Source: a virus. From it: DNA of 64,000 bases. Both the position numbers and the translations under genes were made by a program. The first letter of the stretch is position 1. Each line of letters opens with the position of its first letter. Under the pieces are notes generated by a model that saw only the letters and a program-made list of their open reading frames with translations, did no database searches and was not told where the DNA came from. Location: the IMG/VR virus record IMGVR_UViG_3300045988_050969. One strand, written 5' to 3'. Below, piece by piece: positions 35,431 through 54,694 of this stretch.

Positions 35431-35527
35431 ATTAAAATATTAAAATTAAATTAGACATTAGCGCTTAGTCTATTCGCTTACTTTCTACTTTCATTATTTC
35501 AGATTTCCACGGCCGTAAGCGCCTTAA

Positions 35528-36196: not shown

Positions 36197-36198
36197 AA

Positions 36199-36909
36199 TT
36201 ATTCAGATACTTGGTTTAACTAAAATTTAGAAGATTGTCTTTGAGATTCTATATTCTCTAAAGCAATTACTACAGCTCTATTAATAATCTCATACATGAC
36301 ATCTTCAGGAAAATCTAATTCTTGTTCAGGTTTAGTATAATCAAACTTAGTTGGTTTCTTAACATAAGTGAGATCTACTCTATAGAACTCTGTATTATCT
36401 TCTACTCTTGGAGCATACATAGGATCCTGCATTAAAACAGGATCTACATATACTAAGAGTTTATCATTTTCTAAAGTAGCTACTGGATTCTCTACCCAAG
36501 GTATATTATTATAAGTCTGCTTAAAAGGCTTTACTAACTCATGGCTAGTAAGTACACAGTTAGTCTAGAATTGTCCATACTTAAGTAATACACTAAGTAT
36601 AGTCATTCTATTATCTTCATCATGAACATCTTCTAATGCATACTCATTGTAGTCTGTATGTACAGCATGAAGGTTAACATCTGTAGCTATTAACTTCTCT
36701 ATTTCAGATAAGTTAGATACAGAACCTTCTAAACCTACTCTTAAAGCATTGTTACCAGTAATCTTATTACTTAAGATTTCCAACTATGCTTGATTAAGAA
36801 ATAAGTCTACTTCTTCATCTAAGAATGCTGGGCATCCACCATAAGCAATACCTTCTGCATTCTTATCCAGAACTACCTTGAAAATTATATGAGAATCTTT
36901 ATTAGTCAT
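36199..36909 (-). CDS. head/neck-module protein, unknown function (236 aa, TAG-sense)
   Basis: Track ORFs 36565..36783 and 36220..36432 are co-framed. TAG at 36220-36222. ATG 36907-36909 overlaps the upstream TAA. TAA stop at 36199-36201. Confidence 0.55.
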
Positions 36910-37661: not shown

Positions 37662-37689
37662 AATACTTTGTATTAGATTTATCCTGTTA

Positions 37690-38361: not shown

Positions 38362-38455
38362 ACAATATATCTTTGTTTGGTATATTATATATAACGTACA
38401 AAATACAAAAAAGTTACTCGAAAATTAGTTAAATTTTATTTAATTGATGCTCGAC

Positions 38456-39919: not shown

Positions 39920-39959
39920 AAAAATACTAGTAATTTAATTTTTTAATTATTTAATTTTA

Positions 39960-41183
39960 TTATGCGACACGTAGTTGTCGTGCGAAAGCATCCCAGATAG
40001 ATGAGTTGCTATCGTTATTTATCACTTGCCTTTTAGATTTCTTAGATACTCCACTATTTCTAGATAGTGTATTCTTGAAATTATCAATAGCATCTTTTTT
40101 ACCTTTCTTCTTAGCTATATCAATTAAGGCATCACCTTTCATTGTAAAGTAAGCAGAAGTGATTAAATTCTTAAGGCTTTTAGCATAATCTTTCTAGTAT
40201 CTAGTAATGCCATCTGCATCCGGTTTGAATATGTATTCCAACAGGGCTTTCTTATCCTTTTCAGGAATATCAATTCCATAGATACTATCCATGCCTTTTA
40301 TTTCTGTGACAACGTTATTAAAGAAGTCACGTTGTTGCTTTTCAGCCTCTCTAGCCTATTTTTCCTGGTTGGCTAATAGCTCTTCTTTACGTGCAACTTT
40401 GATGTCTCTAAGAGCCTCTAAAGCGTCTGTAGCCTCGTCCTCTAATAGGCCTGCTTCTTCATATTTGTTAAGTTTCTTTTCAATTTGTTTTGAAGTAAAG
40501 CCTTTTTCTTTTAAAAATTCTTTAATGACCAGTTTTTGATTTACTTCATCATCTTCTATCTCGATATTATCAATATCAAGATCAGCATCGATACTAAAAT
40601 AATCTTTAAGCTTACCTCCATTATGAACAAATTTATCAAGCTTTTCTACTTCCTCGCTAGCATACTGAGGAGTAGAATTTTCTTCTATTACCTCTTTAAA
40701 GTAATCAATTAGATCTTCAGCAGTTCTAGGCTTTTCGTCATCTTCTACGTCATCCCATCCTAATTGTGTTGCTAACGAATCGAAGAATCCTACAATTATT
40801 TCTTCATCACTTGTATCATTTCCACCATCGGTATTATCACTATTAGATTCTTGTTCCCTATCCTCATCCTCATCTTCATTAGTTTCTGTATTTTCAGATT
40901 TGGATTTCTTTTGAGTTTTAGTAGTTTTTTTAGGTTTAGATGTAACATCTTCATCTTCATCTTCCTCTTCAGGATCTTCGTCTTCAAGCTCATCGTCTTC
41001 TACTTTAGTTGTTTTCTTAGGTTTAGGATTACGTAACGCCTCTAACTCTTCATCAGTTAGTTCTTCTGCTGCTGCATCAATTACGTCAGTATCGTTGTCT
41101 TCTGTTTTAGTCTTAGTACCTACATGAGGGTTTAAGGTATCTAATATAGCCTCAAAACCATTCAATGTGTTCTTTGCTTCCAT
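39960..41183 (-). CDS. acidic scaffolding-like protein (407 aa, TAG-sense)
   Basis: Track ORFs 40356..41183 and 39960..40142 are co-framed, with TAG at 40356-40358 plus one more. Long Asp/Glu runs (EDDELEDEDPEEEDEDED). Confidence 0.55.
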
Positions 41184-41201
41184 AATTATATATAATTAGA
41201 T

Positions 41202-41411
41202 TTATTTTTTTCTTCCTTTATGTTTCCATTTTTTCGCATTCTAAGCGAAGATAGCTCGCTTACGAGTCAATGGATTCTTACTATGAGTAAGTTCTTCTGT
41301 ACTTTTACCTGTTCTCTTCTTCAAAGCATTAAACTTACCTCTATTCTTCTTCTTTATATGTATCCCTCCATCTTTATAACTTGGTATTGGATACTGCGGT
41401 ATTATTGTCAT
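41202..41411 (-). CDS. small basic protein (69 aa, one TAG)
   Basis: MTIIPQYPIPSYKDGGIHIKKKNRGKF...RKRAIFA-TAG-NAKKWKHKGRKKK, with a TAA stop. Found by hand; shorter than the track cutoff once split. Confidence 0.4.
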
Positions 41412-41498
41412 AACTGTTAAACAATCTCTTGATTCTTGTTTTTATTTACCTTATTTACTAAAGGTCTAGTTAGAAAATCTTTATATAATACACTTGGT

Positions 41499-42539
41499 TT
41501 AGGGAGCTGATTCTATAACCTATCTAAACTATTTAGTATTAGTAGGATAAGTACTAGGAGTTAATGTATTCATCAAGTACTCATCAAACTAATTCATAAT
41601 ACTTTTCTTTTCTGTAGGCTTACGCAAATATTCATATACACTTTTAGCTCTGTCTTTATCTGGAAACATATGCTCCACTTCAGAGAATGGTCTGTACTTA
41701 CTTGGTTTACCTAACTATCTTAAGTATGCATTATTTGGTACTCCTCCGGGATAAGCTTTCTCATCTACATAATGACCTATTTCATGTCTTATTAATCCTT
41801 TAGGATAGTCTTCTGCAGTTCTAATATTATCTGTAGACAGATTTATAGTTTTACCTTCAGATGGATTAATGTTAGCATAATCTTTTTTATTTGATACAAA
41901 ATTAGGTTCAGGCAAGTTAACATAACTATTTATATCTTCATATTCTTTAGTTAAGTCATCGTATACTTTATTATATTCAGTACCGTACTTTCTATCAATA
42001 GTCTATGCCCTTCTTCTAGCTTCTGGAGTATTTAATAATTCATATGCTCTATTACGCTGATCAGAATATTCTTCTAATACTCGTCTTCTATTGTTGTTTT
42101 CTAAATCTCTTCTAAGATCATTAGCATCAACCTATCTTTGAAAACTTCTAGTAACAGTAGGAATCTCCCTTGAAATTTTGCTTTTAAGAGATTTATATAT
42201 ATTAGGTATAAAAGGAATCATAGCTGAAGCAGCCAAACCAGCACCTAACCAATCTCTATTCTTTACTGCATTATAAGTATCTCTAGCTGATATAGCATCA
42301 CCAATAGGAGTCATATTAGCAGCATCTTCAAGACTAAATACAGGCTTTAAACCTTCTTCTAAAGGTCTACCACTACTACTTCTACCTGTAGCTTGATAAA
42401 ATCTCTCCTTCTCAGGATCACCTGTCTGACCACCATCTGCAAATGCTTCTACCTTCCAATCCCAATAGCCTTTACCGGGATTATTCTCCCGGTAAGACTT
42501 TAGGTTCTGCATTCTCTATTTAAATGCTTGTTTATCCAT
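41499..42539 (-). CDS. putative zinc metalloprotease (HEIGH motif) (346 aa, TAG-sense)
   Basis: Track ORFs 42132..42512 and 41715..41915 are co-framed. Contains GLIRHEIGHYVDE (HExxH). First in-frame non-TAG stop is TAA 41499-41501. Confidence 0.5.
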
Positions 42540-42789
42540 ATATAAAATCTGTAAAATTTCTTTTACCTAAGAATTGTTGTCCATTCATGTAAATCTCAGC
42601 TTCTTGAGAAGATTCAGATATGCAAATAGTAATTATATCTTTTTTAAATATTCTAGTATCCAAAGGAGTACCTATAAAGAACATTATATACTATTGTACT
42701 TCATCTTCATCCTACTCTACGAATCCGTTATCTAATAGTCTCTATATAAACAATTCAATTCTTTCTTTAACAGTAGGTTCTCGTTCCAT
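42532..42789 (-). CDS. hypothetical protein (85 aa, three TAG)
   Basis: Hand translation gives MEREPTVKERIELFI...FTDFIYG. Its TAA overlaps the start of 41499..42539. Confidence 0.4.
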
Positions 42790-42794
42790 AACTA

Positions 42795-42854
42795 TTATTT
42801 CTTTCCGCCTTTACCCTTCTTAGAGCTACCGGATTTCTTACCTCCACATGCCAT
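42795..42854 (-). CDS. possible 19-aa Lys/Gly-rich peptide
   Basis: MACGGKKSGSSKKGKGGKK, preceded by AGGAGG 8 nt upstream. Very short and speculative. Confidence 0.25.
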   Translation of the reverse strand: MACGGKKSGSSKKGKGGKK

Positions 42855-42869
42855 AATTAATTCCTCCTA

Positions 42870-43334
42870 TTATTTAATTGTTTTAAGATATTGTCTCCAA
42901 TTTTTCTTATTAGCCTTATAAGTCTTCTTTCTATCCTTAATCTTATATTTATCAAGATCTTCAGGCTTACGTGTTTTCAGATAATCAAAGTTATCATCAT
43001 TAGCATAAGCTTCCATTTCATAAGGAATAGTATAGTAAGCACTAGATGCAGGATAGATAATCGGATTACCTTTAATCCATTCCCATGCATAAGACCAATA
43101 ATAACTTATCCATCTCTTTTTATCTTTAGCTTCATAGAGATGAATATTTTCATGATTCCAAGTAGTAGGCTTAATCTGAGATTCAGGTTTTCTACTTAAC
43201 AAGTAACCACACCAGCTCATTGCAGAATAACCACTAAATGGATAATGGTCCATATGCTTATACTCTACTTTGTCTGCTTCTACTTTAGTGAATAACTATT
43301 TGATTATCCACCACGTTTCTTTAAACCAATTCAT
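42870..43334 (-). CDS. small HExxH-motif protein (154 aa, one TAG)
   Basis: Track ORF 42870..43253 extended through one TAG to ATG 43332-43334. Contains WNHENIHLYE (HExxH). Confidence 0.5.
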
Positions 43335-43336
43335 AA

Positions 43337-45847
43337 TTATTTCTCTCCTGTTACTTTATTCTTAATCGCAGTTTTGGCTTTTAATCTTTCTCTTTCCATT
43401 GCTGCCTTGTCTTTAGCTGCTTGCAACTTCATTTCATGATCCATTCTTTCTCTTTCAAGCTAATTCTTCTTATCTTCTATCTCTTTTTTCATTTTCTGCT
43501 CTCTAATCTTAGCATTGAATTCAAATTGTTTAGAAGCTTCATCAGATGCTTGCTTACGTTCAGCTAAAGCTTGCTGGGCTATTTCCATGACATCAGGTAC
43601 ACCATTCTCATTCTAATCCATATTTTCAGCACCTCTATAAGCATTAAGTTGAGCTACAGTAATCTTAGTAGCATTATCTTGGTCTATTTTATATTTCTCA
43701 AGATCCATCTCTGCCTCTTTAATCATAAGCTCTTCTTCCTTAACCTCATTTTGCATTTGAATAGCTTGCTGTTCACGTTCTGCTTGAGCTTGCTCCATAG
43801 CTTGTTGTTGCTCCATACGTTTCTACTCAATCTCCTCTAATCTAGACTTAATCATACTAATATTATCCATAGTAATGATTTCGGCTATATCGAGTAAGCT
43901 AGCTCCATTCTGCATAGCAGGTTGCATAAGTTGTTTAAGAGCTTCTACTTGTTGTTGATTCTTAGTAGTATCATCAATGAATATATCCATGTCTTCATAG
44001 AAGAACTCATCAGAAAGAGTTATAAATGCTCTAGTAGCATCATCAAGGATATAATGTAAGCATCTTTTATTATCTTTCCATGCTACTTTAGAAGTATCTA
44101 ATAACATAGTAAGAGCTTCTTTCTTTACTTGATTATGAACCCAGAACCAAGGTTCAGTAATATGAGCTGACTATACTATAGATCTCTCTACATTACCTAC
44201 TAATTCATTAGATGCAACAGAACCTTCACGCTATTTACTTACTCCTGATATTTCTGATACCATAGCTTCAATCTTATCCATAAGATTAATATACTAATCA
44301 ATAGTATTAGCCATAGTAAGATCCAATGAAGTAAATTGATTGAACTGAGATGGCTTACCACCTTCTCTACCGGGTATATCCCATCCTTCTTCGTATGGAT
44401 TAATAAATACTACACCAAGAGCACCTAAGTAATGCATCCATTTATTCACATCTATGCCCATAGATTTAGGTATCTAAGTAACGTCAATAACAGGTACTTT
44501 ACCTTTATCTCTAGCCATAGCGAGTTCTAGTCTGTACCATAGTACAATATACATATACTGCAATGGTTTCATCATACTTACCAAAGATCTAGGAGCACTA
44601 TTAGTATTATTGTATACAACTCCTGTATAAGGTAATTTTTGAGAATTAAGATTATCAGCAGATATGTGTTGGTATTCTAGTGGTTGTATACCTATATATA
44701 AGTCTTCTCCAACTCTATAACCTTCCCATACCTCTATAATCCAAGTCCATTCAACGTTCAACTCCATACCAGTAACCTTGTAGGACTCGTCTACTTGTAA
44801 CTCATCAATTTCTCCAGTATTAGGATCTTGATAAGTAACGAAACCTATTTTCTTAAATGACTTCCAACAGCAATGCCAAACATTAATGTTATCAGACCCT
44901 TCAAACGGATTTGAAGTTAACCCATTAATAGTTCTTGTTTTTAAGTGAGGATAATCCATAGATGTCTTACGTACTTCAGGATTAATGCCTCCCCTGCTTA
45001 CATCATCTACCATTTCAAGCAATTCATTTAATTGCTTTTCTGTCATTTTATCATAGAATCTATCATAAATTTCTGTAGCTGACATAATCATCTTACGGCA
45101 ACACCAATCAGAGTCATGAATGAATTCTAAGTCTGCGCTCTAGTCATAACTAAAGTAAAGAGGATTAACTCGTTCTAAATAAGGATTACCATTTATAATA
45201 CCAATATAGTATATTTCTTCTCCAGCTATCAACGCGTCCTTCCAACCTTTATAAAACTCATGAACTACATTAAGTTTATTCTTAAGATAATTAAGGCTAT
45301 GATATGCTGTTACTTCTGCTATATCCTTATAATCCTTACTTAGATATTTCTATATCTTTTCTGGAGGTAATATTTCACCATTCTGTAATGCTTGTTGATA
45401 TCTCTAAGCCTCTTCAGGGCCTAACTGACTCATAATAGTAGCCATTACATAATCTTCAAGCATTTGTTTAGCAGTATCCTGTACTTCACTAGTAGCTATA
45501 TCACTAGTACGTACTACTCTAAAATTAAATGGTCTTTTTGTTTCTTCACCTAATAATAAGTCTATTTTAGGCTTAATTATATTATAATCCTATGCTGTGG
45601 CAGGGAATCCATCTTTCTATTTAAAAGGATTTGTAACATACAAAAGATCTTTCTCATTATAGATACTATTGTATAAATCATAGTAAGTCTACATCTCCTC
45701 ATATCTAGTACGCCCATTTCTACCGCCTCCACTATTAAAGCCTGACTTACCTATTATATAGTCAACACAGGCTTCTTTCCAATCTTTAGTCTTTTTAGAC
45801 ATAGGAAGTTTTTGCACAGGAAATGAACCAATATTTCTACTTATCAT
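43337..45847 (-). CDS. portal protein candidate (836 aa, TAG-sense)
   Basis: Track ORFs 44474..45091, 43823..44107 and 43613..43816 are co-framed. ATG 45845-45847 is 7 nt below the terminase stop; TAA at 43337-43339. Total is exactly 837 codons. Charged coiled-coil C-terminus. Size and position next to TerL support the call. Confidence 0.6.
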
Positions 45848-45853
45848 ATTCTG

Positions 45854-47899
45854 TTAATTAAATGTATATACATCGTCATCGACTTGACTGAAGCTATCGT
45901 CATAACTCCAGTTACCATAAGTAAAGAGAGGACCGTCGAATAATAATCTCTCTCTGTTAGTTTTTTTCTTCTCTTTTACAACTACATTATATAGCTGTTC
46001 ACGATAAATCATTACCTGCATCAACGCCATCACACGGTCAAAGTTACCTATATCATTATAACCTATAAGCTCTTCTAATAGCGGTTCTGATAATATATCG
46101 TGTAGGTTTTTATGCCCTGGAGATTTCTCATCATTTAACCAATCTTTGATGAGTCCTTCACCCCATTGTTTAATCTGTTTATTCATGTGACAACCTTTCT
46201 TTCGTTGCACCTTAGAATTGCTGATGATATCAGATATAATATCTGGCTAATCAGCCAAAAGATAGTCACAATGCTTAGCAGTAAAGTATGGAAACAAACC
46301 TTTACGCTCATTTTCATACATAATTCTGCCATTATAATAAACTGCGAGTTTACGTAAGTTTTCATAATATTCCTCTGCTGTAGCAGGCCTTCCTGTATAC
46401 TCAGCTACTATTATATCATAGTAGTTTTCAAAGTTCTAAAATCTCTTATATACAAAAGTAGATCCTAATGAGTTAGTACCCGATTGATCATGATCATAAG
46501 GGTCTACTCCAAGTATATATAAACCGATAGGAGCATCCTTTACAGGGTGTTCCCATATAACTATAGAACCAGTAGGATCATCCTCTTTAGATAAAGGATA
46601 ATGAGTAATATCACCTTGTTTTTTTATTACCCATTTAAGACTACCATCTGATTCCCATACTAAATCACCTATCTATTTGTGATTTGATAATTTCTTATTC
46701 GTACGTATTTTAGCTAGTTGTTCTTGTAATTCTTTTTTAGGGAATATATTACCATTAAATTCTAGACATGCTTCAGCTGGAGTAATACAACGTTCCGCTA
46801 CATAACGGTCTACTGCTACAGAACTAGTAGCATTCTCTATTACGTCTTTACGCTGTTGTAATACGTATTCTAAAGCTTTATGTCTTATAGTATTACCGTC
46901 ATTATCCATATACATACGATTTCCCTACTCATCTCGTATGTCCATGTTTGTATACTAAGGTATGAAGAATCCACATTTAGTATCTCCTACATTCTCATCC
47001 CATATGTTATCAAGCTCTAAACAATTATAACCTTTAGGCTTATAAAACATATCTTTAAGAGTAAAGAAGTTAGAATCTTCATCACCACCAGTACCAAATG
47101 CAATCATAGTAGCAAATGCTCTACCATCATTCTCTACAGAAGGTCTAGCGATTTGCCATGCTGCGCCTAATTCTTTAAATGAACCAGCTTCTTCAAATAG
47201 AATAAGGTTAGCTTTCTTACCACGTACTACATCAGGATTGTCTTTCAAAGTAACCCCAATAATTTCAGATTTATAACCTACTTCTATTTGATTACCATAC
47301 TCATCCTTCATACTTACTGCAGCGCGTTTACGTAATTGAGTATTTACAGCTCTTTTCTTACCCCACGCAGTATGTTCATCTATAAAGTCTAAGTAGTCCC
47401 AAGCTTTAGTAAGAATACCATCATCTGTTAAATATTGCTTATTTGAAGCATATACATATGATTTAGAGTTAGGTATAAGATAGTAATTACGACATAACAT
47501 AGCAGCTCCTTTATAGGAGTAACCTTTACGTCTAGACTTAAGTACACATAAATGTTTACCCTATTTATGAGCTTCATTTACTGCATTAAAATAGTAATAA
47601 TCATAGTCCCAAAAATCAGGAAATGTAACCAACTACTCTGATACTACTTCCCCATTTACTATACTATTGACAGTACGGTTAATAGGACAATAATTTAAAT
47701 AAAAATAGTTATACCCACTAATGAAATCACCATCATCAGCTGTATAACCATTAATACAACGTTCCTTTTCCTCTGTCCAGAAACGCATATATTCTGCCGT
47801 ACCTTTGGGGTGTGGACAGTATTGACCTGTTCTAATATATGTAAGAGCAGGCTATCTAAACTTATTACTATTTACTATCTTCTTATTAAAGTCGACCAT
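45854..47899 (-). CDS. terL: terminase large subunit (681 aa, TAG-sense)
   Basis: Track ORFs 46955..47500, 46673..46915 and 45854..46210 are co-framed. Motifs VLKSRRKGYSYK (Walker A region), ANLILFEEAGSF (Walker B/coupling), IAFGTGGD and LGVDPYDHD (nuclease Asp). ATG 47897-47899; TAA 45854-45856. Confidence 0.7.
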
Positions 47900-48104
47900 T
47901 TCTCTTCTTTGTTCTAGTGAGACTGATTAAAGCTTCTTTTATAGTCTTTTCTGTAATCTTACTGTACACAGTACTGTTGGCGATATCGAATTGACAAATA
48001 ATACCATTACCGGCAGCCTTCCATATCTCCGGAGTAATTTGGTATCCATCAAGCTCATCCTGCATAGCAAGGAAAGTTACATTCTTACCTCTAAGTTTAT
48101 CCAT
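47886..48104 (-). CDS. small protein upstream of terL (possible small terminase or DNA-binding), TAG-free
   Basis: Intact 72-aa track ORF. Overlaps the terL start by 14 nt. Confidence 0.45.
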   Translation of the reverse strand: MDKLRGKNVTFLAMQDELDGYQITPEIWKAAGNGIICQFDIANSTVYSKITEKTIKEALISLTRTKKRNGRL

Positions 48105-48125
48105 GTTCGTGCGTTTTATAATTGA

Positions 48126-48153
48126 AAGGGGCGCGTTTCACAACGAACCCCTT
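48126..48153 (-). terminator. GC hairpin, possible terminator of the tRNA/ncRNA transcript
   Basis: AAGGGG...CCCCTT with a 16-nt loop, followed by a weak T-tract on the minus strand. Confidence 0.35.
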
Positions 48154-48199
48154 CTATTGAGATAATAATTTATAACTTAAAATTCTTTAATTATGAAAA

Positions 48200-48345: not shown

Positions 48346-48382
48346 TGCTATTGTAATTTCAAAGGACTAGTGTTTTAATTTG

Positions 48383-48454
48383 TCCTCCTACCATAGAATC
48401 GAACTCGGACTTACGGGGCTAGAATCCGTCGTGCTGCCACTACACCATAGGAGA
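48383..48454 (-). tRNA. amber suppressor tRNA, anticodon CUA (Gln-like)
   Basis: Minus strand: TCTCCTA TG GTGT AGTGGCA GCAC G ACGGA TTCTAGC CCCGT AAGT CCGAG TTCGATT CTATGG TAGGAGG A. The 7-bp acceptor includes U1-G72. The D arm carries GG. The anticodon loop is UU-CUA-GC. The T-loop is TTCGATT. Imperfections: an A31-C39 mismatch and one bulged A in the T stem. The UUCU.. loop and CCGAG-TTCGA T arm resemble bacterial tRNA-Gln (from memory). Confidence 0.75.
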
Positions 48455-48460: not shown

Positions 48461-48483
48461 CGTGGATATTCTTACCCTCCACG
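48461..48483 (-). promoter_or_regulatory. hairpin with AAGAAU-containing loop 6 nt upstream of the suppressor tRNA
   Basis: Minus strand CGTGGA-GGGTAAGAATA-TCCACG. Same loop motif as the hairpins at 55846, 57584 and 57795. Confidence 0.45.
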
Positions 48484-48523
48484 TAAGGGTCCCTTCAGGG
48501 TTAAATTAATGATATCTTAAAAT

Positions 48524-48676
48524 TAAAACCAGCTCTTGATACGCTTAGCTATTCTTTTATACCAAGGTTTTACTTGCAATCTAGCTGCTTCACATTCAGC
48601 AATTGCTTCCTCAACAGTCTTGGTATCATCAGTCAAATCTACGATAATTGTAGGCATTTTTGTATTTTTATCCATA
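48524..48676 (-). CDS. hypothetical small protein (about 50 aa), TAG-free
   Basis: Hand translation MDKNTKMPTIIVDLTDDTKTVEEAIAECEAARLQVKPWYKRIAKRIKSWF, with a TAA stop. Confidence 0.4.
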
Positions 48677-48730
48677 ATCTCAATTTTGTATTATTAAACG
48701 TTGTTGTTATTTTTTAGTGTTTATCAAATG

Positions 48731-49276
48731 TTATACTCTAACATTTTGATTAGGAAGTTCAAATAAATTAATCTTAGCGTCACCTTTTACTTTGCTAGTT
48801 TCAAGCTCACCAGATTTAACAGCTTTCTCTAAGTAATCTAGAGTAACAAATGTATCTTTTACTTTAGCAAACCCTGCATAATACTTCTCTATTTTTTTTT
48901 CATCAAGTTCTTCCAATAAAGAATCTTTATAGTATTTATTGAAAGTATCCAGCTTTAATCTGATGCTATCTAGCATATCTAAAGTACGAGTATGTTGTAA
49001 TCTAATAAAGCTATCTTCTGCTTTCTGCTCATCCTCAGAAAGCTCATAATCTGTGCTTCCTAAGAATTCTTCTTTTAGTTTACTTTCTATTTGATCGTAT
49101 GGAATACTCAGTACATAAGGACTATCCCATTTATTCTTAAATACTATATAACTAAGTATTGCAGTAGCATGTTGTTTATCAGCTTTATCTGATTCCCATA
49201 TTTTCTTAAAAGCAGGTATAGCTAAAGCATTTTCATGTATTACTACTTTTCCTCCTATTATATCAAATAGTTTCAT
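48731..49276 (-). CDS. hypothetical protein (181 aa)
   Basis: Intact track ORF, TAG-free, TAA stop. Confidence 0.65.
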   Translation of the reverse strand: MKLFDIIGGKVVIHENALAIPAFKKIWESDKADKQHATAILSYIVFKNKWDSPYVLSIPYDQIESKLKEEFLGSTDYELSEDEQKAEDSFIRLQHTRTLDMLDSIRLKLDTFNKYYKDSLLEELDEKKIEKYYAGFAKVKDTFVTLDYLEKAVKSGELETSKVKGDAKINLFELPNQNVRV

Positions 49277-49288
49277 AATTATTATGTA

Positions 49289-49639
49289 TTAGTTATTTGA
49301 TACGTTTGAGGCACATTCACATTTAGAGAATGTACTACTTATTTTCTGTTTTTCATCTTGCATCTTTGCAATATGCTCTTTAATAGCTTTATCACTAATT
49401 ACAGCATAAACGAAAGTTTTATCATCAAGTTTATATGTTTTTGCTATCAAATCACCTTTAGACACTTTTACATTTTCAGTAGTTCCATCTTTTTTTGTGA
49501 TACTGTATTCCCCATCTTCAGGAACAATCCATATATAATCGAAATAGAAACTATCTAAAACAGTTACCTCATTTGTATCCGGATTATAACCTGCCATGCA
49601 ACTACTATTATTGCTATTTACGTATTTATTCATAATCAA
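49289..49639 (-). CDS. hypothetical protein (116 aa)
   Basis: Intact track ORF, TAG-free, TAA stop. Confidence 0.6.
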   Translation of the reverse strand: MIMNKYVNSNNSSCMAGYNPDTNEVTVLDSFYFDYIWIVPEDGEYSITKKDGTTENVKVSKGDLIAKTYKLDDKTFVYAVISDKAIKEHIAKMQDEKQKISSTFSKCECASNVSNN

Positions 49640-49732
49640 TCTATTCTATAATCAGTATAATATTCTTTTTGTAATCTTGCTAATATTACTCTAGCTTGTT
49701 TCTCTGAACAATTAGGATTTGTGTATTCGGGA

Positions 49733-50476
49733 TTATTCTGATACTTGTTTATCACTGTCTGATAATACGCTATCTCCTGTTCTAGACTTTCCTTTGTTAT
49801 ATTCATAAATAGTTTCTTCTACTAAGTCTTTTAATCTATCTTTATAGGAACACAGTTTTGCTATAACCTCTTCATTAGAACCATATAAATTACGATCTGT
49901 AAATATTCCTTTAACTACATTTTTGTTATTATCTTCTATAATGGCTCCAGTTTCATCTTCGCTTAACCAATAATTAAAGTTTGTTCTTTTAGCCAGCTCT
50001 TTAGATAGTTCTATAATCGAACGATGTATTTCTTTCTTTAAATCACTGATAGTGTCAAATTCAGCTCTTCTATCTAACTCTTCTTTGGAAGAAAGTTGTA
50101 TCTTATCGAGTATGTCATTACAACTGTTTATTTTTTCTTCAATACGTTCATCTAGAGCTTTAGATAAATCTTCAATAGTTGCTTTTCTAATAGTGTGTTT
50201 ACTTATCCACAGCATTGCTATTGCATTCCAAGCTACTTGAGCTAAGTGATGACAACCAGTATCTTTGTCAATAGTATTACCTTTTTCATACTCAAGTAAG
50301 TGCCTTAGCATGGCAGCTTTATAACGTTGATAACCATTCTCTAAGTTCTGCCAATTATTATCGCCATACTTAATAGAACCAGCTGTGTATACTTTTACGA
50401 TGTCTTCAATTTCTTCTAAAGGTAATAAATCCCATCTTAATTTCTTGTCTAAGAAATCATTCTTCTTTCCTTCCAT
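49733..50476 (-). CDS. hypothetical protein; N-terminal half resembles phage dATP/dGTP diphosphohydrolase-type domain (from memory, unverified)
   Basis: Intact 247-aa track ORF. Contains LRWDLLP...YGDNNWQN...MLRHL...HLAQVAWNA. Confidence 0.6.
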   Translation of the reverse strand: MEGKKNDFLDKKLRWDLLPLEEIEDIVKVYTAGSIKYGDNNWQNLENGYQRYKAAMLRHLLEYEKGNTIDKDTGCHHLAQVAWNAIAMLWISKHTIRKATIEDLSKALDERIEEKINSCNDILDKIQLSSKEELDRRAEFDTISDLKKEIHRSIIELSKELAKRTNFNYWLSEDETGAIIEDNNKNVVKGIFTDRNLYGSNEEVIAKLCSYKDRLKDLVEETIYEYNKGKSRTGDSVLSDSDKQVSE

Positions 50477-50897
50477 TTTCTTTATCTCTTAAATAATCTA
50501 TCATAAATTGACCTACTTTGCCTGCTATCCAACCTAGTAAATAAGCATAAGGTTCATTACCTTGATCGTATCCTTGTCCTACTCCTCCTATTATATCCCA
50601 TATTACATCGGTAGCATGCGTAGATTCATGAGCAGCTACTTCTATAGCTGTACCATCTAATTTATCTGGAGCTTCTATAAGAATAAGCACTCCTTTGTCT
50701 CCAGTTCTCTTATCTCTTACTATAAATGTAACTCCATCTGCACTGACTGGACTAATAGGGGAGCCGTTATTCTCATTATTCAATAAATCTTTAATAGTAG
50801 GATAGAACAAGAACTTTTTCTTCATATCTTCAAAACAATCTATAGTAGAAATATAGAGATCTACGGGATATATATCAAGACAGTATTTCCTAATCAT
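50457..50897 (-). CDS. hypothetical protein with HExxH motif (AAHESTHA)
   Basis: Intact 146-aa track ORF with a TGA stop. Confidence 0.6.
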   Translation of the reverse strand: MIRKYCLDIYPVDLYISTIDCFEDMKKKFLFYPTIKDLLNNENNGSPISPVSADGVTFIVRDKRTGDKGVLILIEAPDKLDGTAIEVAAHESTHATDVIWDIIGGVGQGYDQGNEPYAYLLGWIAGKVGQFMIDYLRDKENGRKEE

Positions 50898-51150
50898 CTT
50901 TTATTATTTTATATATATTAGCAATTGCTCTATTACTAAGTAAGTACACATACAAAAATACTTCATCTGACAATCTATAAGTTGAATCAGGGGTAATGAT
51001 TTCATTACTACTTTCTTTAATTTGTATTGTGCATTCATCTTTCTGACCTGTTGGATAAGACATTTTGTAATATATCATGAGCTCTACTAATTCTGTTAGA
51101 ATGTCATTTTGTGGTATCTTTGTTATCCGTATCTTCTTTCTTTCGCTCAT
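50890..51150 (-). CDS. hypothetical protein (86 aa) terminating in TAG
   Basis: Intact track ORF. Stop codon is TAG 50890-50892, with an in-frame TGA 4 codons further down (50875-50877). Confidence 0.55.
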   Translation of the reverse strand: MSERKKIRITKIPQNDILTELVELMIYYKMSYPTGQKDECTIQIKESSNEIITPDSTYRLSDEVFLYVYLLSNRAIANIYKIIKDD

Positions 51151-51296
51151 ATACCTTCTTAATTTTGATTTTACCTAAGTAAGTGAATAGCATTGGTCTT
51201 TCATCACCTTCTGTTATTCTTCTATTAGCGAACATAAAAGGATGATTACATATAACCTTTATTACCTAACTAGGAAGTTGATATTTATTACTTAGT

Positions 51297-51725
51297 TCAG
51301 AATATATACTCATTCCAGTTTTTTTCATTTGATAACCATCTAGTATTATAATATTTATTATTTAAGAAAGCCTGTAAATCATTAGTATTATCTGAAAATG
51401 TGTTAGTTCTAATAACATTAATTGCTGCAAATAAATCTTCAATCTTTATACCTTCTTCTGAACTTGTAGCAATATCACCTTTAAATTCTAGAATCTTCTC
51501 TAATGTATTAATCTCTTTCTTACTATAGTTCTTTTTAGGTTCAGCAATAATAACGTCTGTATTTTTACTATATGCGTTTACTAAATCACACGAATCTTTA
51601 AAGATAACAAAATGATTATAAGGTAATACTTTCTTGCTTAGCTTAGCCCAAAATCTTTTAAACCAATTATACTTTTTACATAATAAAACACAACCTGGTT
51701 TAAGTGTTACATATTGTATATTCAT
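51297..51725 (-). CDS. hypothetical protein (142 aa)
   Basis: Intact track ORF with a TGA stop. Confidence 0.6.
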   Translation of the reverse strand: MNIQYVTLKPGCVLLCKKYNWFKRFWAKLSKKVLPYNHFVIFKDSCDLVNAYSKNTDVIIAEPKKNYSKKEINTLEKILEFKGDIATSSEEGIKIEDLFAAINVIRTNTFSDNTNDLQAFLNNKYYNTRWLSNEKNWNEYIF

Positions 51726-51726
51726 A

Positions 51727-51999
51727 TTATTCTTTCTCCAATCTAAGTACGATAGTTAGCTGAACTCTATCTCCTATTACTTCAGGTATTAATGCTGGAT
51801 TAACCATCCATTCATCATCAGCTTTACCTTTTATTATCAGACCTTTATCTCTTAATTTCCCTATGTATCTACTTAAGTTATCACTAGTAATGCCTGTTGC
51901 AGCTTTTAGATAACGTCTGTTTTCGGTACTTATCACATTCTTGCTGTACCCAGGGAGCTTAGGTGTATTAATATCTATATCAATTAATAAAACCATCAA
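51727..51999 (-). CDS. winged-helix DNA-binding protein candidate (90 aa)
   Basis: Intact track ORF. Contains NRRYLKAATGITSDNLSRYIGKLRDKGLII, a helix-turn-helix-like segment. Confidence 0.5.
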   Translation of the reverse strand: MMVLLIDIDINTPKLPGYSKNVISTENRRYLKAATGITSDNLSRYIGKLRDKGLIIKGKADDEWMVNPALIPEVIGDRVQLTIVLRLEKE

Positions 52000-52090
52000 G
52001 TCTTGCTCCCTAGTGGTCAGCTAAAGTACACCATCAAGTGATTTGAGGAATTCTCTGTAAAGATCTGTTTTTTTAACCGTCTTTACAAGT

Positions 52091-52498
52091 TTATTCATTA
52101 ATGATTTCCTTTACCTTTTTAAGAATTTGATTCATATTGAAATATACCGTGTCTGCTTCAACCTTAACACAAGTAGGAATTTCTTGATTGTTATAGGCTT
52201 CTACTAAATCGTCATGGTCTTTCTTATATTGAGCTTCTAATGTATCTACTAAATCAGATAATGCACACAATTTATCAATTGCAGAGATTTCCTTATCCTC
52301 ATCTTCAACAACTAACAGATTACCTGATTCTACAAACTCTTCTGCTGTTTCCTCATCCATACACATATAACGTGAACACTTCTTATTATCGTTTTCAGTT
52401 ATCATACTGAATTCATATAAATTAGTATCCTCATTATAAGTAAGCATATCACCTTTTTGTGCAGATGCAAATTCTTTAATTACTTTATAGTTCTTCAT
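52091..52498 (-). CDS. hypothetical acidic protein (135 aa)
   Basis: Intact track ORF with a TAA stop. Confidence 0.6.
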   Translation of the reverse strand: MKNYKVIKEFASAQKGDMLTYNEDTNLYEFSMITENDNKKCSRYMCMDEETAEEFVESGNLLVVEDEDKEISAIDKLCALSDLVDTLEAQYKKDHDDLVEAYNNQEIPTCVKVEADTVYFNMNQILKKVKEIINE

Positions 52499-52664
52499 AA
52501 TAATTATTATTTAGTTGTTTAATAGTTGTTACATATACCTAAACGGTAAATGTTAAAATAGTATTTATTCTTTAACATTTGTTAACTTATATTTAAGTAA
52601 AGACATGAAAAAAGGCTAGATCCGCAGACCTAGCCCCACAACAACTATTAATACGCATTAATAT

Positions 52665-53018
52665 TTAGTCTTTTCTTGCTATAATATCATAAGGTTTAAC
52701 TAACTGACTATCCTTGAATAAGTCAAAGTCTTTAGCAAACTTCTTATTAAATACTATTGTATCTCCTACTTTAAAGTCTGTTATATTTAGACTTTCTGGA
52801 ATAGCAAGTACAATTCCTAATCTCCACTCTGACTCTACTTCTTTTACTTCAGTCTTAGTCTCAAACTTCTCATAACCATCAACATCTTTTTCACCTGTAC
52901 CAACTGCTTCAGTTATTTCTTTCTTCAGCTTAATAGGTTCAAGAGGTTTAACTAACACATCTTTCAGAGGAGTATAACCAATTCCATTAATTACTGTTTC
53001 TAGTACTTTATCTTCCAT
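52665..53018 (-). CDS. GroES / gp31-like co-chaperonin candidate (117 aa)
   Basis: Pattern PLKDVLVKP ... GIVLAIP ... FKVGDTIVFNK ... YDIIA parallels GroES PLxDRVxVK ... GxVxAVG ... VKVGDxVxF ... DILA. Confidence 0.5.
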   Translation of the reverse strand: MEDKVLETVINGIGYTPLKDVLVKPLEPIKLKKEITEAVGTGEKDVDGYEKFETKTEVKEVESEWRLGIVLAIPESLNITDFKVGDTIVFNKKFAKDFDLFKDSQLVKPYDIIARKD

Positions 53019-53212
53019 AATATTCTTATTTATATTCTATAACGTATTATTTGTTGTTTTGTTTCTTTAATCTCAATATATTTCCGCCATTAGAACAGCA
53101 GTATCTCCTAGCTAAAGTAGGACAATTTTTATCTAAGTAATAGCATCCATCACAACTACCTATAGGATTAGACTCTACTATAAACTATTTGTTATCTATT
53201 ATTACTGGTATT

Positions 53213-53470
53213 CTATTCTTTACTATCTTTGCTAATTCCTAGTCGTTCAAAGTCATTACCTTCAATTTTATATATCCATATAAAGTAGTCTACTATATAC
53301 TTAGCCATTTCACTAGTTTCACCATCTTCTATGTAGCTATTCACAACCGCATTATAAGTAGACTTATCAAAAGATAAGCTATTATTATCTATAATAGCTC
53401 CGTTATCTAATAGCTTTTGATTTATTCTTTCTAATCCCTTTATAGAAGGATTATATTCTACTATATTCAT
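53213..53470 (-). CDS. hypothetical protein (85 aa) terminating in TAG
   Basis: Intact track ORF. Stop is TAG 53213-53215, with an in-frame TAA about 7 codons downstream. Confidence 0.55.
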   Translation of the reverse strand: MNIVEYNPSIKGLERINQKLLDNGAIIDNNSLSFDKSTYNAVVNSYIEDGETSEMAKYIVDYFIWIYKIEGNDFERLGISKDSKE

Positions 53471-53667
53471 TATTGTTTTCTTTCTCTTTTAAGTATAAAG
53501 CCTTGAGTGCATAGTGAAGTAATCCTAGAAGGACAATAGCAATTGTATAAATCACAACCTTGACACATACCCTTTACTTCGTTCTCTACTAAAGTATAAG
53601 GTTTATTACCAAAATATACTTTCTTACCTAAGTAAGCTACTTCTTTAACTTGTTGTTGTTTATTCAT
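53470..53667 (-). CDS. small Cys-rich protein (65 aa)
   Basis: Intact track ORF. Contains CQGCDLYNCYCPSRITSLC. Confidence 0.5.
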   Translation of the reverse strand: MNKQQQVKEVAYLGKKVYFGNKPYTLVENEVKGMCQGCDLYNCYCPSRITSLCTQGFILKRERKQ

Positions 53668-53833
53668 AATATAAATATCTAAAGTAGGAGACTATAATCA
53701 GTCTATACTGTCTTAGACTGTCTTTAACTGTTATAGACAGTAACGTATAAACTCTTATAAAAGTTTCTTTTATGATAAACTTTTTAACATTTGTTAAGAA
53801 CAATTATAGCTATTTAATAGCTAATTTTTAACA

Positions 53834-54694
53834 TTATTTATGAATTAATTTATATAATTCATCGGCTAACTTCTTAGCATCTGGATGAGCTGCACCACTA
53901 CAACGTAACTTAAAGAAACCTTCCCAATCACTTTCAAAGCCTGTCATTACTAATTCTGTCTTAGTTGCATTAGGTAGTACTCCACGAGCTTCTTGAGGCT
54001 TTAAACCTTTGTTTATTAGCAGTCTGTATTGCATTCCTGCATTGTTCAAACACCATAAAAAGTTATCTGCTACACCATTATCTGAAGGTAATTGGATTTT
54101 CATATTATCAATATCACACCAATCTCCATCCCAGTAAGTATAATCACCTGTAGGTATATCTAACCAAGTAGGTTTAATAAAAGTAAGCTCGTTATTAAAT
54201 TTATCCTTATTGTAGTTACAATATCTCTGTGACTCCTGTGCAAAGCTGAATACTCTGTGTCTAACAAATTCATGGCTTACTCCTCTATCGCATATAAATT
54301 TAGCTGTGATGCGCTTTTCATGATGTTCTGTAGGTTCTACTTGATATTGCAAGTCATCTAATCTATTATTCTCTACTATTACTCGTAGATTGGTTGTCAC
54401 GTATATTGAATTTCCATGTATACGCACTTTTGTATATTTCTTGTGATTACCATCTGACCAATATAGTCTAGCTGGTGGAAGATGTCCGTCTTCTGTTTTA
54501 TCTATCTTTAAATAAATAGTACCATGCTCTAACATAGCCCCATGACCAAGCTTAATCATACGGTCTACAAACTCTTTAGCGCTATCCTCTGTTATCTTAT
54601 CTTCACTCTTATAGCAAGTTCTACCTGCTAATTCTATCATCTTGTAAGGGTCTTTTTCCTCAATAATCTGTACGCTGGATTCTATTAGTTTCAT
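53834..54694 (-). CDS. thyX: flavin-dependent thymidylate synthase
   Basis: Intact 286-aa track ORF. ThyX signature RHRVFSFAQESQR (RHR-x7-S) plus an N-terminal AGRTCYKS...GHGAMLEHG pattern. Confidence 0.85.
   Translation of the reverse strand: MKLIESSVQIIEEKDPYKMIELAGRTCYKSEDKITEDSAKEFVDRMIKLGHGAMLEHGTIYLKIDKTEDGHLPPARLYWSDGNHKKYTKVRIHGNSIYVTTNLRVIVENNRLDDLQYQVEPTEHHEKRITAKFICDRGVSHEFVRHRVFSFAQESQRYCNYNKDKFNNELTFIKPTWLDIPTGDYTYWDGDWCDIDNMKIQLPSDNGVADNFLWCLNNAGMQYRLLINKGLKPQEARGVLPNATKTELVMTGFESDWEGFFKLRCSGAAHPDAKKLADELYKLIHK

What the first reader, a model, noticed from the sequence alone, without database searches (positions are those of the whole stretch)
48383..48454. Phage-encoded amber suppressor tRNA (anticodon CUA) at the exact boundary between standard-code and TAG-sense genes
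A 72-nt cloverleaf on the minus strand has anticodon loop UU-CUA-GC, a 7-bp acceptor stem, a GG-containing D loop and a TTCGATT T loop. It lies in a 420-nt non-coding gap between the last TAG-free middle gene (48524..48676) and the first late genes (47886.., terL). It is therefore transcribed in the same direction, just ahead of the genes that need it. The UUCU anticodon-loop start and the CCGAG-TTCGA T arm resemble bacterial tRNA-Gln. The fold has two blemishes, an A31-C39 mismatch and a bulged A in the T stem, so its function needs testing.
Basis: seen in the sequence. Interest (0 to 1): 0.85.

Follow-up and report, generated by a model that had tools for sequence, protein, structure and literature searches.

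The report
Amber suppressor tRNA in crAss-like phage
A gut crAss-like phage carries its own glutamine-type tRNA that reads the stop codon TAG, placed just ahead of the late genes full of in-frame TAGs; this is a real but already well-described phage strategy, although the slot it sits in proved unexpectedly variable and is preceded by an undescribed RNA pseudoknot.

Summary
ARAGORN and Rfam both call a tRNA with anticodon CUA at 48383-48454 (-). The window is a crAss-like phage (Suoliviridae, Birpovirus), 96% identical to cr115_1.

- Late genes below the tRNA hold 172 in-frame TAGs in 15,400 codons. The 14 genes above hold at most 3.
- TAG means glutamine. Of 62 positions where only this phage or cr115_1 has TAG, 50 are CAG/CAA in the other.
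- The tRNA resembles Bacteroidales tRNA-Gln(CUG) with G36 changed to A.
- Both 'blemishes' (A31·C39, bulged A in the T stem) are conserved in relatives with compensatory changes, so they are not defects.
- In 13 reference genomes, a CUA tRNA sits at this locus exactly when terL contains TAG.

All this is known biology (Yutin 2021, Borges 2022, Peters 2022), and sister genomes annotate a 'tRNA-Gln' at this position. The window's allele is a new member.

Less ordinary findings from the follow-up:
- All 81 syntenic loci carry a CUA tRNA. Three are split by group I introns within the anticodon, and nine have atypical arms that predictors miss.
- One lineage of 12 genomes holds eight cassette states.
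- A covarying pseudoknot precedes every copy.

The parts
48383..48454 (-). Amber suppressor tRNA, anticodon CUA, Bacteroidales tRNA-Gln-like. Features: U1·G72, A73, G37, A31·C39, bulged A in the T stem, no encoded CCA.
   Evidence: ARAGORN. Rfam tRNA 37.7 bits. Cloverleaf covariation on 15 related tRNAs: 94.6% of cells paired against 72.5% in shuffles. Nearest relatives L009, L149 and L165 show compensatory changes.
48461..48490 (-). Candidate H-type pseudoknot in the tRNA 5' leader: S1 ACCC/GGGU, S2 CGUGGA/UCCACG, A-rich linker AAGAAUA. It ends 6 nt before the tRNA.
   Evidence: Seen in all syntenic relatives with different sequences. 14 distinct variants; 0-1 of 100 shuffles score as well. 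98.5% of cells paired and 10 of 10 pairs with compensatory changes, on a hand-registered alignment. No Rfam family at E<=1.
48523..48675 (-). 50-codon ORF, the last gene before the tRNA. No TAG, stop TAA. The conserved C-terminus ..SWF recurs in relatives.
   Evidence: Sequence. Annotated as hypothetical gp24 in cr115_1. No Pfam or PHROG match.
48125..48154 (-). Strong G+C-rich hairpin followed by UUUC. It may terminate the tRNA-containing transcript and lies at the end of a 230-nt spacer conserved within the genus.
   Evidence: Fold. Weak terminator-type Rfam matches. Conserved in cr115_1. Not counted by the consensus terminator scan because the T run is short.
47886..48104 (-). 72-codon ORF inserted relative to cr115_1. 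It overlaps the terL start and has no TAG.
   Evidence: Only a sub-threshold Pfam Crass_capsid match (E=0.0022).
45854..47899 (-). Terminase large subunit, the first conserved late gene, with 8 in-frame TAGs.
   Evidence: PHROG 6681, E=1.8e-157. TAG count.
3..47899 (-). Late (structural, packaging, lysis) gene block read with TAG = Gln. It holds 172 in-frame TAGs, 26.5% of all Gln-type codons. All complete genes stop at TAA or TGA.
   Evidence: Major head protein PHROG 11589.
48523..54694 (-). Upstream same-strand block of 14 genes with at most 3 in-frame TAGs. One gene (53213..53470) stops at TAG.
52021..52023 (-). In-frame TAG at codon 26 of the MarR-like 'transcriptional regulator' gene 51727..52098. 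It is the exception to the code boundary.
   Evidence: The N-terminus is conserved in five homologues. The TAG is shared with cr115_1 and aligns with D or R in homologues.

Best explanation
The 72-nt gene at 48383-48454(-) encodes a functional amber suppressor tRNA derived from a Bacteroidales-type tRNA-Gln(CUG) by a G36-to-A change, like E. coli supE.

Proposed mechanism:
1. The tRNA is transcribed on the same strand as the preceding TAG-poor genes.
2. It is matured by host enzymes, including CCA addition, because CCA is not encoded.
3. It is charged with glutamine by the host glutamine-charging system.
4. It then competes with release factor 1 at UAG, so the 172 in-frame TAGs of the late block, from terL onward, are read as Gln.

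Because full-length late proteins cannot be made without it, the tRNA ties late-protein synthesis to its own expression.

Shown here: the gene, its fold, its Gln-like features, TAG = Gln, the code gradient, and the strict co-occurrence with recoding.

Inferred: transcription unit, processing, charging enzyme, competition with RF1, and the timing role.
For: - Two independent predictors agree on the gene and the CUA register.
- Cloverleaf pairs are kept by compensatory changes. In the closest lineage these are C4-G69 to U-A (L009), A7-U66 to G-C (L149), A27-U43 to G-C (L149, L165) and C50-G64 to U·G (L149), with no disruptive change. Over 15 related tRNAs, 94.6% of cells pair against 72.5% in shuffles and about 45% in slid controls.
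- The tRNA is better conserved than its neighbours: 92% identity in L165, where terL DNA is 76% and orf181 DNA 66%.
- Gln identity: the D-arm motif belongs to tRNA-Gln in 118 of 123 cellular hits, mostly Bacteroidales. U1, A73, G37 and a UUCUGGC loop are native to those tRNAs.
- TAG = Gln: 16 of 21 window TAGs in terL and portal align with Q in standard-code cr10_1. Of 62 one-sided TAG positions against cr115_1, 50 are CAG/CAA.
- Code gradient: 172 TAGs in 15,400 codons against at most 3 in 1,851.
- Co-occurrence: 8 of 8 recoded and 0 of 5 standard-code Suoliviridae reference genomes have a CUA tRNA at this locus. All 81 syntenic loci have one.
- RefSeq annotates the syntenic gene as tRNA-Gln in cr114_1, cr53_1, cr52_1, cr6_1, cr125_1 and cr60_1.
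- TAG-to-Q has proteomic support in crAss-like phages (PMC9523058).
Against: - There is no expression, charging or suppression data.
- The Rfam score is modest (37.7 bits; the window's tRNA-Leu scores 50.9).
- The unconstrained minimum-energy fold is not a cloverleaf and is no more stable than shuffles (z = -0.44).
- C2-G71 differs from the G2-C71 of most cellular tRNA-Gln found.
- A73 rather than G73, and A36, depart from the E. coli GlnRS identity set (textbook knowledge).
- The 31:39 pair is A·C, whereas Bacteroidales tRNA-Gln has A-U.
- CCA is not encoded, unlike in the three closest relatives.
- Only 64 kb of a roughly 100-kb genome is in the window, so a second suppressor elsewhere cannot be excluded for this phage. 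The 96%-identical cr115_1 has none.
- My identity ranking against cellular tRNAs is biased, because the loci were chosen by the D-arm motif.
Confidence: 0.85

Rival explanations
1. The gene is a decaying or non-functional tRNA copy, and TAG is decoded by something else: a second phage suppressor outside the 64-kb window, or a host factor.
For: Structural oddities: A31·C39, a bulged T stem, no encoded CCA, and a modest 37.7-bit score. The minimum-energy fold is not a cloverleaf. About 36 kb of the genome was not seen. Published surveys report recoded phages without detectable suppressors (PMC7886860; 10.1101/2021.08.26.457843).
Against: - The same oddities are retained in L009, L149 and L165, with compensatory stem changes and stronger conservation than the flanking genes.
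- cr114_1 independently has A31·C39.
- The full genome of cr115_1 has no other CUA tRNA.
- All 81 syntenic loci keep a CUA tRNA exactly here.
- The host's own tRNA-Gln genes also lack an encoded CCA.
Confidence: 0.05
2. The tRNA reads UAG but inserts an amino acid other than glutamine. ARAGORN's label suggests pyrrolysine; Trp, Tyr, Lys or Glu are the other candidates.
For: - ARAGORN labels every CUA tRNA 'Pyl'.
- The E. coli GlnRS elements G73, G2-C71 and G36 are absent.
- 12 of 62 one-sided TAG positions are not Gln codons in the relative.
- The TAG in the regulator gene aligns with D or R.
- Kienbeck et al. predict non-Gln isotypes for about 30% of phage suppressor tRNAs (10.1101/2023.06.13.544163).
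Against: - 50 of 62 TAG substitutions are CAG/CAA, and no other amino acid recurs more than twice.
- Q dominates at aligned positions in standard-code homologues.
- The body of the tRNA matches Bacteroidales tRNA-Gln, which itself has A73 and G37.
- It has an ordinary D loop and T loop, not the unusual tRNA-Pyl architecture (my knowledge).
- Proteomics shows Q at TAG in crAss-like phages (PMC9523058).
Confidence: 0.05
3. The tRNA is a working Gln suppressor, but its position does not encode a timing switch. It sits there because the site between orf50 and terL is a recombination and homing hot spot where tRNA cassettes land, and expression may be constitutive.
For: - 12 genomes of one lineage hold eight cassette states between identical flanks, often with HNH endonuclease genes or introns.
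- The same alleles recur in different genera.
- A tRNA-Met often shares the slot.
- A sense TAG exists upstream, in the regulator gene.
- No promoter or timing data exist. The sigma-70 scan is uninformative for Bacteroides or phage polymerases.
Against: - The position is fixed across four subfamilies and always precedes the first recoded gene.
- The TAG density changes about sevenfold or more exactly there.
- A conserved leader pseudoknot and a downstream hairpin suggest a dedicated expression unit.
- The two ideas are not mutually exclusive.
Confidence: 0.25

Closest known systems
Suppressor tRNA(CUA) of TAG-recoded crAss-like phages (genetic code 15); Yutin et al. 2021 PMC7886860, Borges et al. 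10.1101/2021.08.26.457843, Peters et al. 2022 PMC9523058
   Same: Same phage order and family, same anticodon, same TAG-to-Gln reading confined mostly to late genes. It occupies the same syntenic slot where RefSeq annotates 'tRNA-Gln' in cr114_1, cr53_1, cr52_1, cr6_1, cr125_1 and cr60_1.
   Different: - The sequence is a distinct allele (cluster T11, found only in the window among the 81 loci).
- It is at most 81% identical to anything in GenBank phages.
- It replaces the intron-split allele of the 96%-identical reference cr115_1.
- It has a bulged T stem and no encoded CCA.
E. coli supE (glnV44), tRNA-Gln2 CUG to CUA amber suppressor
   Same: A tRNA-Gln(CUG) body with a single G36-to-A change, giving a Gln-inserting amber suppressor still recognised by the glutamine-charging enzyme. 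This is mechanism by analogy and rests on textbook knowledge.
   Different: It is phage-encoded and needed for about 170 sense TAGs rather than rescuing nonsense mutations. The body is of Bacteroidales type (A73, G37, D arm GUGUA.UGG.AGCAC), not enterobacterial. Charging was not tested.
Group I introns in bacterial tRNA anticodon loops (e.g. cyanobacterial tRNA-Leu(UAA))
   Same: This applies to relatives only. cr115_1 (228-nt intron) and L178/L183 (1,002-nt intron with an HNH ORF) are split inside the anticodon. The 5' exon ends in U and the intron ends in G. An intact intron-less allele exists in L181.
   Different: The window's own tRNA has no intron. The introns sit between nucleotides 35 and 36 of a CUA suppressor anticodon. 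The Rfam group I score for cr115_1 is below threshold (21.3 bits against 50), and splicing has not been shown.
Theta (minimal HDV-like) ribozymes flanking phage suppressor tRNAs; Kienbeck et al. 10.1101/2023.06.13.544163
   Same: A structured RNA element immediately adjacent to a suppressor tRNA of a recoded gut phage, possibly involved in its maturation.
   Different: Theta ribozymes lie at the tRNA 3' end and have the nested HDV fold. Here, nothing HDV-like follows the tRNA (sequence). The conserved element is a simple two-stem pseudoknot in the 5' leader.

Membership tests
tRNA (Rfam RF00005) | Cloverleaf scoring above the family's gathering threshold | tested here: met
   37.7 bits against a gathering score of 29, full-length match 1-71. 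ARAGORN agrees.
tRNA (Rfam RF00005) | Stems maintained by compensatory substitutions among homologues | tested here: met
   15 of 21 pairs show changes on both sides. 94.6% of cells pair against 72.5% in shuffles, with 0 of 500 shuffles reaching that value.
Amber suppressor tRNA | Anticodon CUA in the canonical 7-nt loop register | tested here: met
   The loop is U32 U33 C34 U35 A36 G37 C38 by both ARAGORN and Rfam.
Amber suppressor tRNA | Actual read-through of UAG in vivo | not testable with these tools
   Support is indirect only: 172 in-frame TAGs in intact late genes, and CUA tRNA presence matches recoding in 13 of 13 genomes.
tRNA-Gln (glutamine acceptor) | Body resembling the host clade's tRNA-Gln (D arm, U1 with a weak 1:72 pair, discriminator, positions 37/38) | tested here: met
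   The D-arm motif is tRNA-Gln in 118 of 123 cellular hits. The cellular genes have U1, A73, G37 and a UUCUGG(C/A/U) loop. The window has U1·G72, A73, G37 and C38.
tRNA-Gln (glutamine acceptor) | E. coli GlnRS identity set: U1-A72, G2-C71, G3-C70, G10, G73, U35, G36 (textbook) | tested here: inconclusive
   Present: U1 with a weak pair, G10, U35. Absent: G2-C71 (window has C-G), G3-C70 (U-A), G73 (A) and G36 (A, as in supE). Bacteroidales tRNA-Gln itself lacks G73 and G3-C70, so the E. coli rules may not transfer.
tRNA-Gln (glutamine acceptor) | The codon it reads corresponds to Gln in homologous proteins | tested here: met
   50 of 62 one-sided TAG positions are CAG/CAA in cr115_1 or the window. 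16 of 21 align with Q in cr10_1.
Code-15 (TAG=Gln) crAss-like phage, Suoliviridae | Crassvirales core genes and near-identity to a classified member | tested here: met
   96% nucleotide identity to Birpovirus cr115_1 over 94% of a 5-kb query. crAss-type terL and major head protein PHROGs.
Code-15 (TAG=Gln) crAss-like phage, Suoliviridae | ORFs restored only when TAG is read as sense, mainly in late genes | tested here: met
   ORF span rises from 42.6 to 66.8 kb when TAG is read as sense.
Theta-ribozyme-associated suppressor tRNA | Minimal HDV-like ribozyme starting within 5 nt of the tRNA 3' end | tested here: not met
   No HDV-family match at E<=1 in 47800-48800. The 3' trailer CAAAUUAAAAC has no G-initiated fold.
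tRNA-Pyl (ARAGORN's label) | Special tRNA-Pyl architecture and a Pyl biosynthesis and charging system | tested here: not met
   It has an ordinary D loop with GG and a UUCGAUU T loop. The label follows only from the anticodon. TAG aligns with Gln. pyl genes were not searched for.

The most novel reading that the evidence does not exclude
The slot between orf50 and terL in recoded Suoliviridae is a dedicated, exchangeable 'suppressor cassette'.
- It always opens with a covarying H-type pseudoknot that no RNA family describes.
- It always contains a CUA tRNA, but the tRNA is swapped freely between lineages. There are eight states among 12 near-identical genomes, and the window's allele is unique among them.
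- About 15% of copies are invisible to tRNA predictors, because a group I intron splits the anticodon between nucleotides 35 and 36 or because the D and T arms are atypical.

If this is right, it accounts for 'recoded phages without a suppressor' in this family. It also points to an undescribed leader RNA that controls maturation or release of the tRNA that switches the genetic code.
Probability: 0.5. Interest if true: 0.65.

Novelty: new member of a known kind. Interest (0 to 1): 0.4.

Why it matters
The tRNA itself adds one more allele to a documented phage strategy: TAG read as glutamine in late genes of crAss-like phages. It mainly serves correct annotation. This genome must be translated with code 15 downstream of 48.4 kb, or terL, portal, tail and lysis genes appear shattered.

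The wider value lies in the locus. Surveys find suppressor tRNAs in only about 40% of TAG-recoded phages (10.1101/2021.08.26.457843), and a 2026 preprint still lists Suoliviridae without one (10.64898/2026.08.21.746148). Here, anchoring on synteny recovers a CUA tRNA in 81 of 81 loci, including intron-split and atypical ones. This gives a concrete, testable answer for this family. It also provides candidate parts, namely diverse natural amber suppressors active in Bacteroidales and a conserved leader pseudoknot, for studying how a phage flips its host's code.

Tried and rejected
- **Unconstrained folding.** Folding the 73 nt alone gave a long irregular hairpin no better than shuffles (z = -0.44). 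It is not informative for a tRNA, so I relied on covariation instead.
- **Promoter and terminator scan.** The sigma-70/terminator consensus scan around the gene found 9 promoter-like sites against 4.4 expected and no terminator. I did not interpret it, because Bacteroides and phage polymerases use other signals.
- **Theta or HDV-like ribozyme at the tRNA 3' end.** None found (sequence).
- **The 230-nt spacer between tRNA and terL as a structured RNA.** The whole-spacer z-score is only -1.43. Only the terminal hairpin stands out.
- **Identity ranking against cellular tRNAs.** Gln ranked best at 53 of 72 identical positions. The loci were selected by the D-arm motif, so I used discrete features instead.
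- **Automatic pseudoknot anchoring for allele clustering.** It picked spurious sites in coding sequence and was discarded. I redid the clustering from ARAGORN calls plus inspected loci.
- **MAFFT alignment of pseudoknot cores.** It shifted registers. I replaced it with a hand-registered, N-padded alignment, which biases towards the structure. The independent shuffle search is the fairer control.
- **Exact-pattern scans for the window allele.** Viral contigs gave only L009 and L014. The metagenome scan returned 37 loci, most of them chance matches in unrelated G+C-rich DNA. It added new members of the wider family, of which L149 and L165 are close relatives of the window allele.
- **ORF72.** Only a sub-threshold Crass_capsid match. 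Left unassigned.

Full report
**1. The observation**

ARAGORN finds three RNA genes in the window. One is a tRNA with anticodon cta at 48382..48454 on the minus strand. Rfam's tRNA model matches 48383..48454(-) over its full length at 37.7 bits against a gathering score of 29. The E-value is 2.4e-4 for the whole window and 3.7e-6 locally.

- a 7-bp acceptor stem (U1·G72)
- a GG-containing D loop
- a UUCGAUU T loop
- A31·C39
- one extra A in the T stem

The CCA end is not encoded (ACAA). The minimum-energy fold of the bare sequence is not a cloverleaf and is no better than shuffles, so thermodynamics alone does not support it. The support comes from homologues (section 4).

**2. What the window is**

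The 5 kb around the tRNA is 96% identical to 'uncultured phage cr115_1' (Crassvirales; Suoliviridae; Uncouvirinae; Birpovirus) and 70-80% identical to other Suoliviridae. The ORF at 45854..47899 is a crAss-type large terminase (PHROG E=1.8e-157). The ORF at 38456..39919 is the major head protein.

**3. Two codes**

Reading TAG as sense raises the ORF span of at least 100 codons from 42.6 to 66.8 kb.
- The 36 minus-strand genes from 3 to 48104 contain 172 in-frame TAGs in 15,400 codons, which is 26.5% of TAG+CAA+CAG. None of them stops at TAG.
- The 14 genes from 48523 to 54694 contain at most 3 TAGs in 1,851 codons, and one of them stops at TAG.

The tRNA lies in the 418-nt gap between these blocks, on the same strand. 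The boundary is steep but not absolute. The MarR-like regulator gene 51727..52098 has a TAG at codon 26 inside an N-terminus conserved in five homologues, and the TAG is shared with cr115_1.

**4. TAG means glutamine**

In terL and portal, 16 of the window's 21 TAGs align with Q in the standard-code relative cr10_1. Across 13,243 late-gene codons aligned with cr115_1, 121 TAGs are shared. Of the 62 positions where only one genome has TAG, 50 are CAG or CAA in the other, and no other codon recurs more than twice. Peters et al. confirmed Q at TAG by proteomics in crAss-like phages (PMC9523058).

**5. The tRNA is real and glutamine-like**

*The closest lineage.* Its closest relatives are in L009, L149 and L165. 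They keep the A31·C39 pair, the UUCUAGC loop and the bulged T stem. They differ by changes that preserve pairing:
- C4-G69 to U-A
- A7-U66 to G-C
- A27-U43 to G-C
- C50-G64 to U·G

In L165, a 99-kb phage of another genus, the tRNA is syntenic and 92% identical, while terL DNA is 76% and orf181 DNA 66% identical.

*The wider family.* On an alignment of 15 related tRNAs, the cloverleaf with the bulge pairs in 94.6% of cells. Shuffles give 72.5% and slid controls about 45%. Fifteen of 21 pairs change on both sides. The only systematic non-pairs are 1:72 and 31:39. cr114_1's tRNA also has A31·C39.

*Glutamine features.* The D-arm motif AUGGUGUAAUGGU(N)AGCAC, scanned in one genome per prokaryotic species, hit Bacteroidales above all. 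Of 123 tRNAs carrying it, 118 were tRNA-Gln (84 UUG, 34 CUG) and 5 were tRNA-His. Those cellular genes have U1, A73, G37 and loops such as UUCUGGC. The window's UUCUAGC loop is therefore a CUG-type glutamine loop with G36 changed to A, the same change as E. coli supE. The cellular genes also lack an encoded CCA.

*Differences from the cellular genes.* The window has C2-G71 and A31·C39. ARAGORN's 'Pyl' label reflects only the anticodon.

**6. Comparative association**

Among 13 Suoliviridae reference genomes, the 8 whose terL holds 7-14 TAGs all have a CUA tRNA between the small ORF and terL. The 5 with no TAG in terL or portal (four Boorivirinae and cr118_1) have none. RefSeq already annotates this gene as tRNA-Gln in six of them. 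Yutin et al. and Borges et al. described suppressor tRNAs and late-gene recoding in crAss-like phages. The finding is therefore correct but known in kind.

**7. The closest relative has a different tRNA**

cr115_1 has identical flanks, but 320 nt replace the window's 92 nt, and ARAGORN finds no tRNA there or anywhere else with CUA. The insert is another tRNA, split by a 228-nt element that weakly matches Rfam's group I intron model (21.3 bits, E=0.0047). The 5' exon ends ...CUCU and the intron ends ...AUG. Joining the exons gives a loop CU-CUA-AC, and ARAGORN accepts the product as tRNA(cta). Four ~100-kb assemblies carry it.

**8. The locus across 81 genomes**

Using an alignment of the upstream protein orf181, I fetched 80 syntenic viral loci.
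- Sixty-eight have a canonical CUA tRNA in the slot.
- L178 and L183 carry the cr53-type tRNA interrupted at the same 35|36 position by 1,002 nt that encode an HNH endonuclease (Pfam 22.2 bits against a 21.4 cut-off). Their spliced sequence equals the intact tRNA of L181 exactly.
- Nine further loci have tRNA-like genes with perfect anticodon stems, CU-CUA-A(A/C) loops, A73 and an encoded CCA, but atypical D and T arms that neither predictor calls. Eight have 7-bp acceptor stems; L253 pairs at only 5 of 7 positions in the register tested. I identified these by inspection plus a simple pairing check.

All 81 loci therefore hold a CUA tRNA, and 12 of them (15%) are hidden from standard tools.

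Clustering at 85% identity gives 12 alleles. The cr53 type occurs in six lineages. The window's lineage (12 genomes, orf181 98-99% identical) shows eight states, and the window's allele is unique among them. No GenBank phage record has it; the best match is 81% identical. HNH genes frequently accompany the cassettes, which suggests homing-driven exchange. That is an inference.

**9. A conserved leader pseudoknot**

Immediately upstream of every copy, ending 4-8 nt before the tRNA, the sequence can form an H-type pseudoknot. In the window it spans 48461-48490: ACCC-UUA-CGUGGA-GGGU-AAGAAUA-UCCACG.
- Fourteen distinct variants keep both stems, for example CGGGGA/UCCCCG, CAGGGA/UCCCUG, UGAGGAU/AUCCUCA and GCUUGA/UCAAGC.
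- Only 0-1 of 100 shuffles per sequence score as well.
- On a hand-registered alignment that includes two imperfect variants, 98.5% of cells pair against 62.8% in shuffles and 27-45% when slid. All 10 pairs show compensatory changes. The hand registration favours the structure.
- It precedes both intron-less and intron-split alleles.
- No comparable pseudoknot was found in the same region of the two standard-code relatives examined, cr10_1 and cr55_1, which lack the tRNA.
- No Rfam family matches at E<=1.

Its role is unknown. Leader processing, stability or controlled release of the suppressor are candidates.

**10. Downstream of the tRNA**

A 230-nt genus-specific spacer ends in a strong G+C hairpin (48125-48154) followed by UUUC. 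The spacer as a whole is not significantly structured (z = -1.43). No theta or HDV-like ribozyme follows the tRNA. A 72-codon ORF (47886..48104), absent from cr115_1, then overlaps the terL start.

**11. Verdict**

The mechanism most likely is a supE-like, host-charged Gln suppressor that makes translation of late genes depend on its own expression (confidence 0.85). Charging, timing and suppression are inferred, not shown.

As a kind of thing it is already known, and the window contributes a new allele. The more novel material is the hypervariable cassette, the intron-split and atypical suppressors, and the leader pseudoknot. These rest on comparative sequence evidence only.

Noticed in passing
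window 48461-48490 (-); relatives L002-L006, L165, L174-L253 just upstream of their CUA tRNAs: A covarying H-type pseudoknot (4-6 bp and 6-7 bp stems, A-rich linker) ends 4-8 nt before every syntenic suppressor tRNA. No comparable element was found in the two standard-code relatives examined that lack the tRNA. No Rfam family matches.
   Followed up: partly
L001 6733-7032 (-) = NC_055898.1 cr115_1; L178 2324-3400; L183: Suppressor tRNAs are split between anticodon nucleotides 35 and 36 by group I-type introns: 228 nt without an ORF, or 1,002 nt with an HNH endonuclease ORF. The spliced L178 equals the intact tRNA of L181. RefSeq annotates no suppressor in cr115_1.
   Followed up: partly
L177, L180, L182, L184, L230, L241, L243, L250, L253 (about 2320-2410 in each): tRNA-like genes with 5-bp anticodon stems, CU-CUA-A(A/C) loops, A73 and encoded CCA, but with D and T arms lacking the usual GG and UUCRA motifs. 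Eight have 7-bp acceptor stems; L253 pairs at 5 of 7 positions. ARAGORN and Rfam miss them.
   Followed up: partly
L174-L184 plus the window, between the pseudoknot and the motif AGTCCTTTGAAA: Twelve genomes with 98-99% identical orf181 carry eight different states of the CUA tRNA cassette (92 to 1,171 nt) between identical flanks. The same alleles recur in other genera, and HNH genes often ride along.
   Followed up: partly
window 52021-52023 (-), in gene 51727..52098: In-frame TAG at codon 26 of a MarR-like 'transcriptional regulator' in the otherwise TAG-poor block upstream of the tRNA. It is shared with cr115_1 and aligns with D or R, not Q, in homologues. The full-length regulator may depend on the suppressor.
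   Followed up: partly
window 56185-62220 (+): A dense cluster of structured RNAs in the plus-strand early region: RAGATH-6, RAGATH-7, three hatchet ribozymes, tRNA-Leu(UAA), RAGATH-9, and a permuted tmRNA (tag GNTSYVMNYSRIAA). The RAGATH-9 3' end (61842) overlaps the tmRNA start (61828).
   Followed up: no
window 50875-50892 and 53183-53215 (-): Two upstream genes end at TAG followed within 4-6 codons by TGA or TAA. These are possible back-up stops that would limit read-through once the suppressor is active.
   Followed up: no
window 47886-48104 (-): A 72-codon ORF inserted between the terminator-like hairpin and terL, absent from cr115_1. It has only a sub-threshold match to the crAss capsid family (E=0.0022).
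   Followed up: partly
L002 5047-5117, L006 4489-4559, L009 3110-3181, many of L185-L252: A tRNA-Met(CAU) frequently shares the slot just downstream of the suppressor tRNA, often separated from it by an HNH or homing endonuclease gene. The window lacks it.
   Followed up: no
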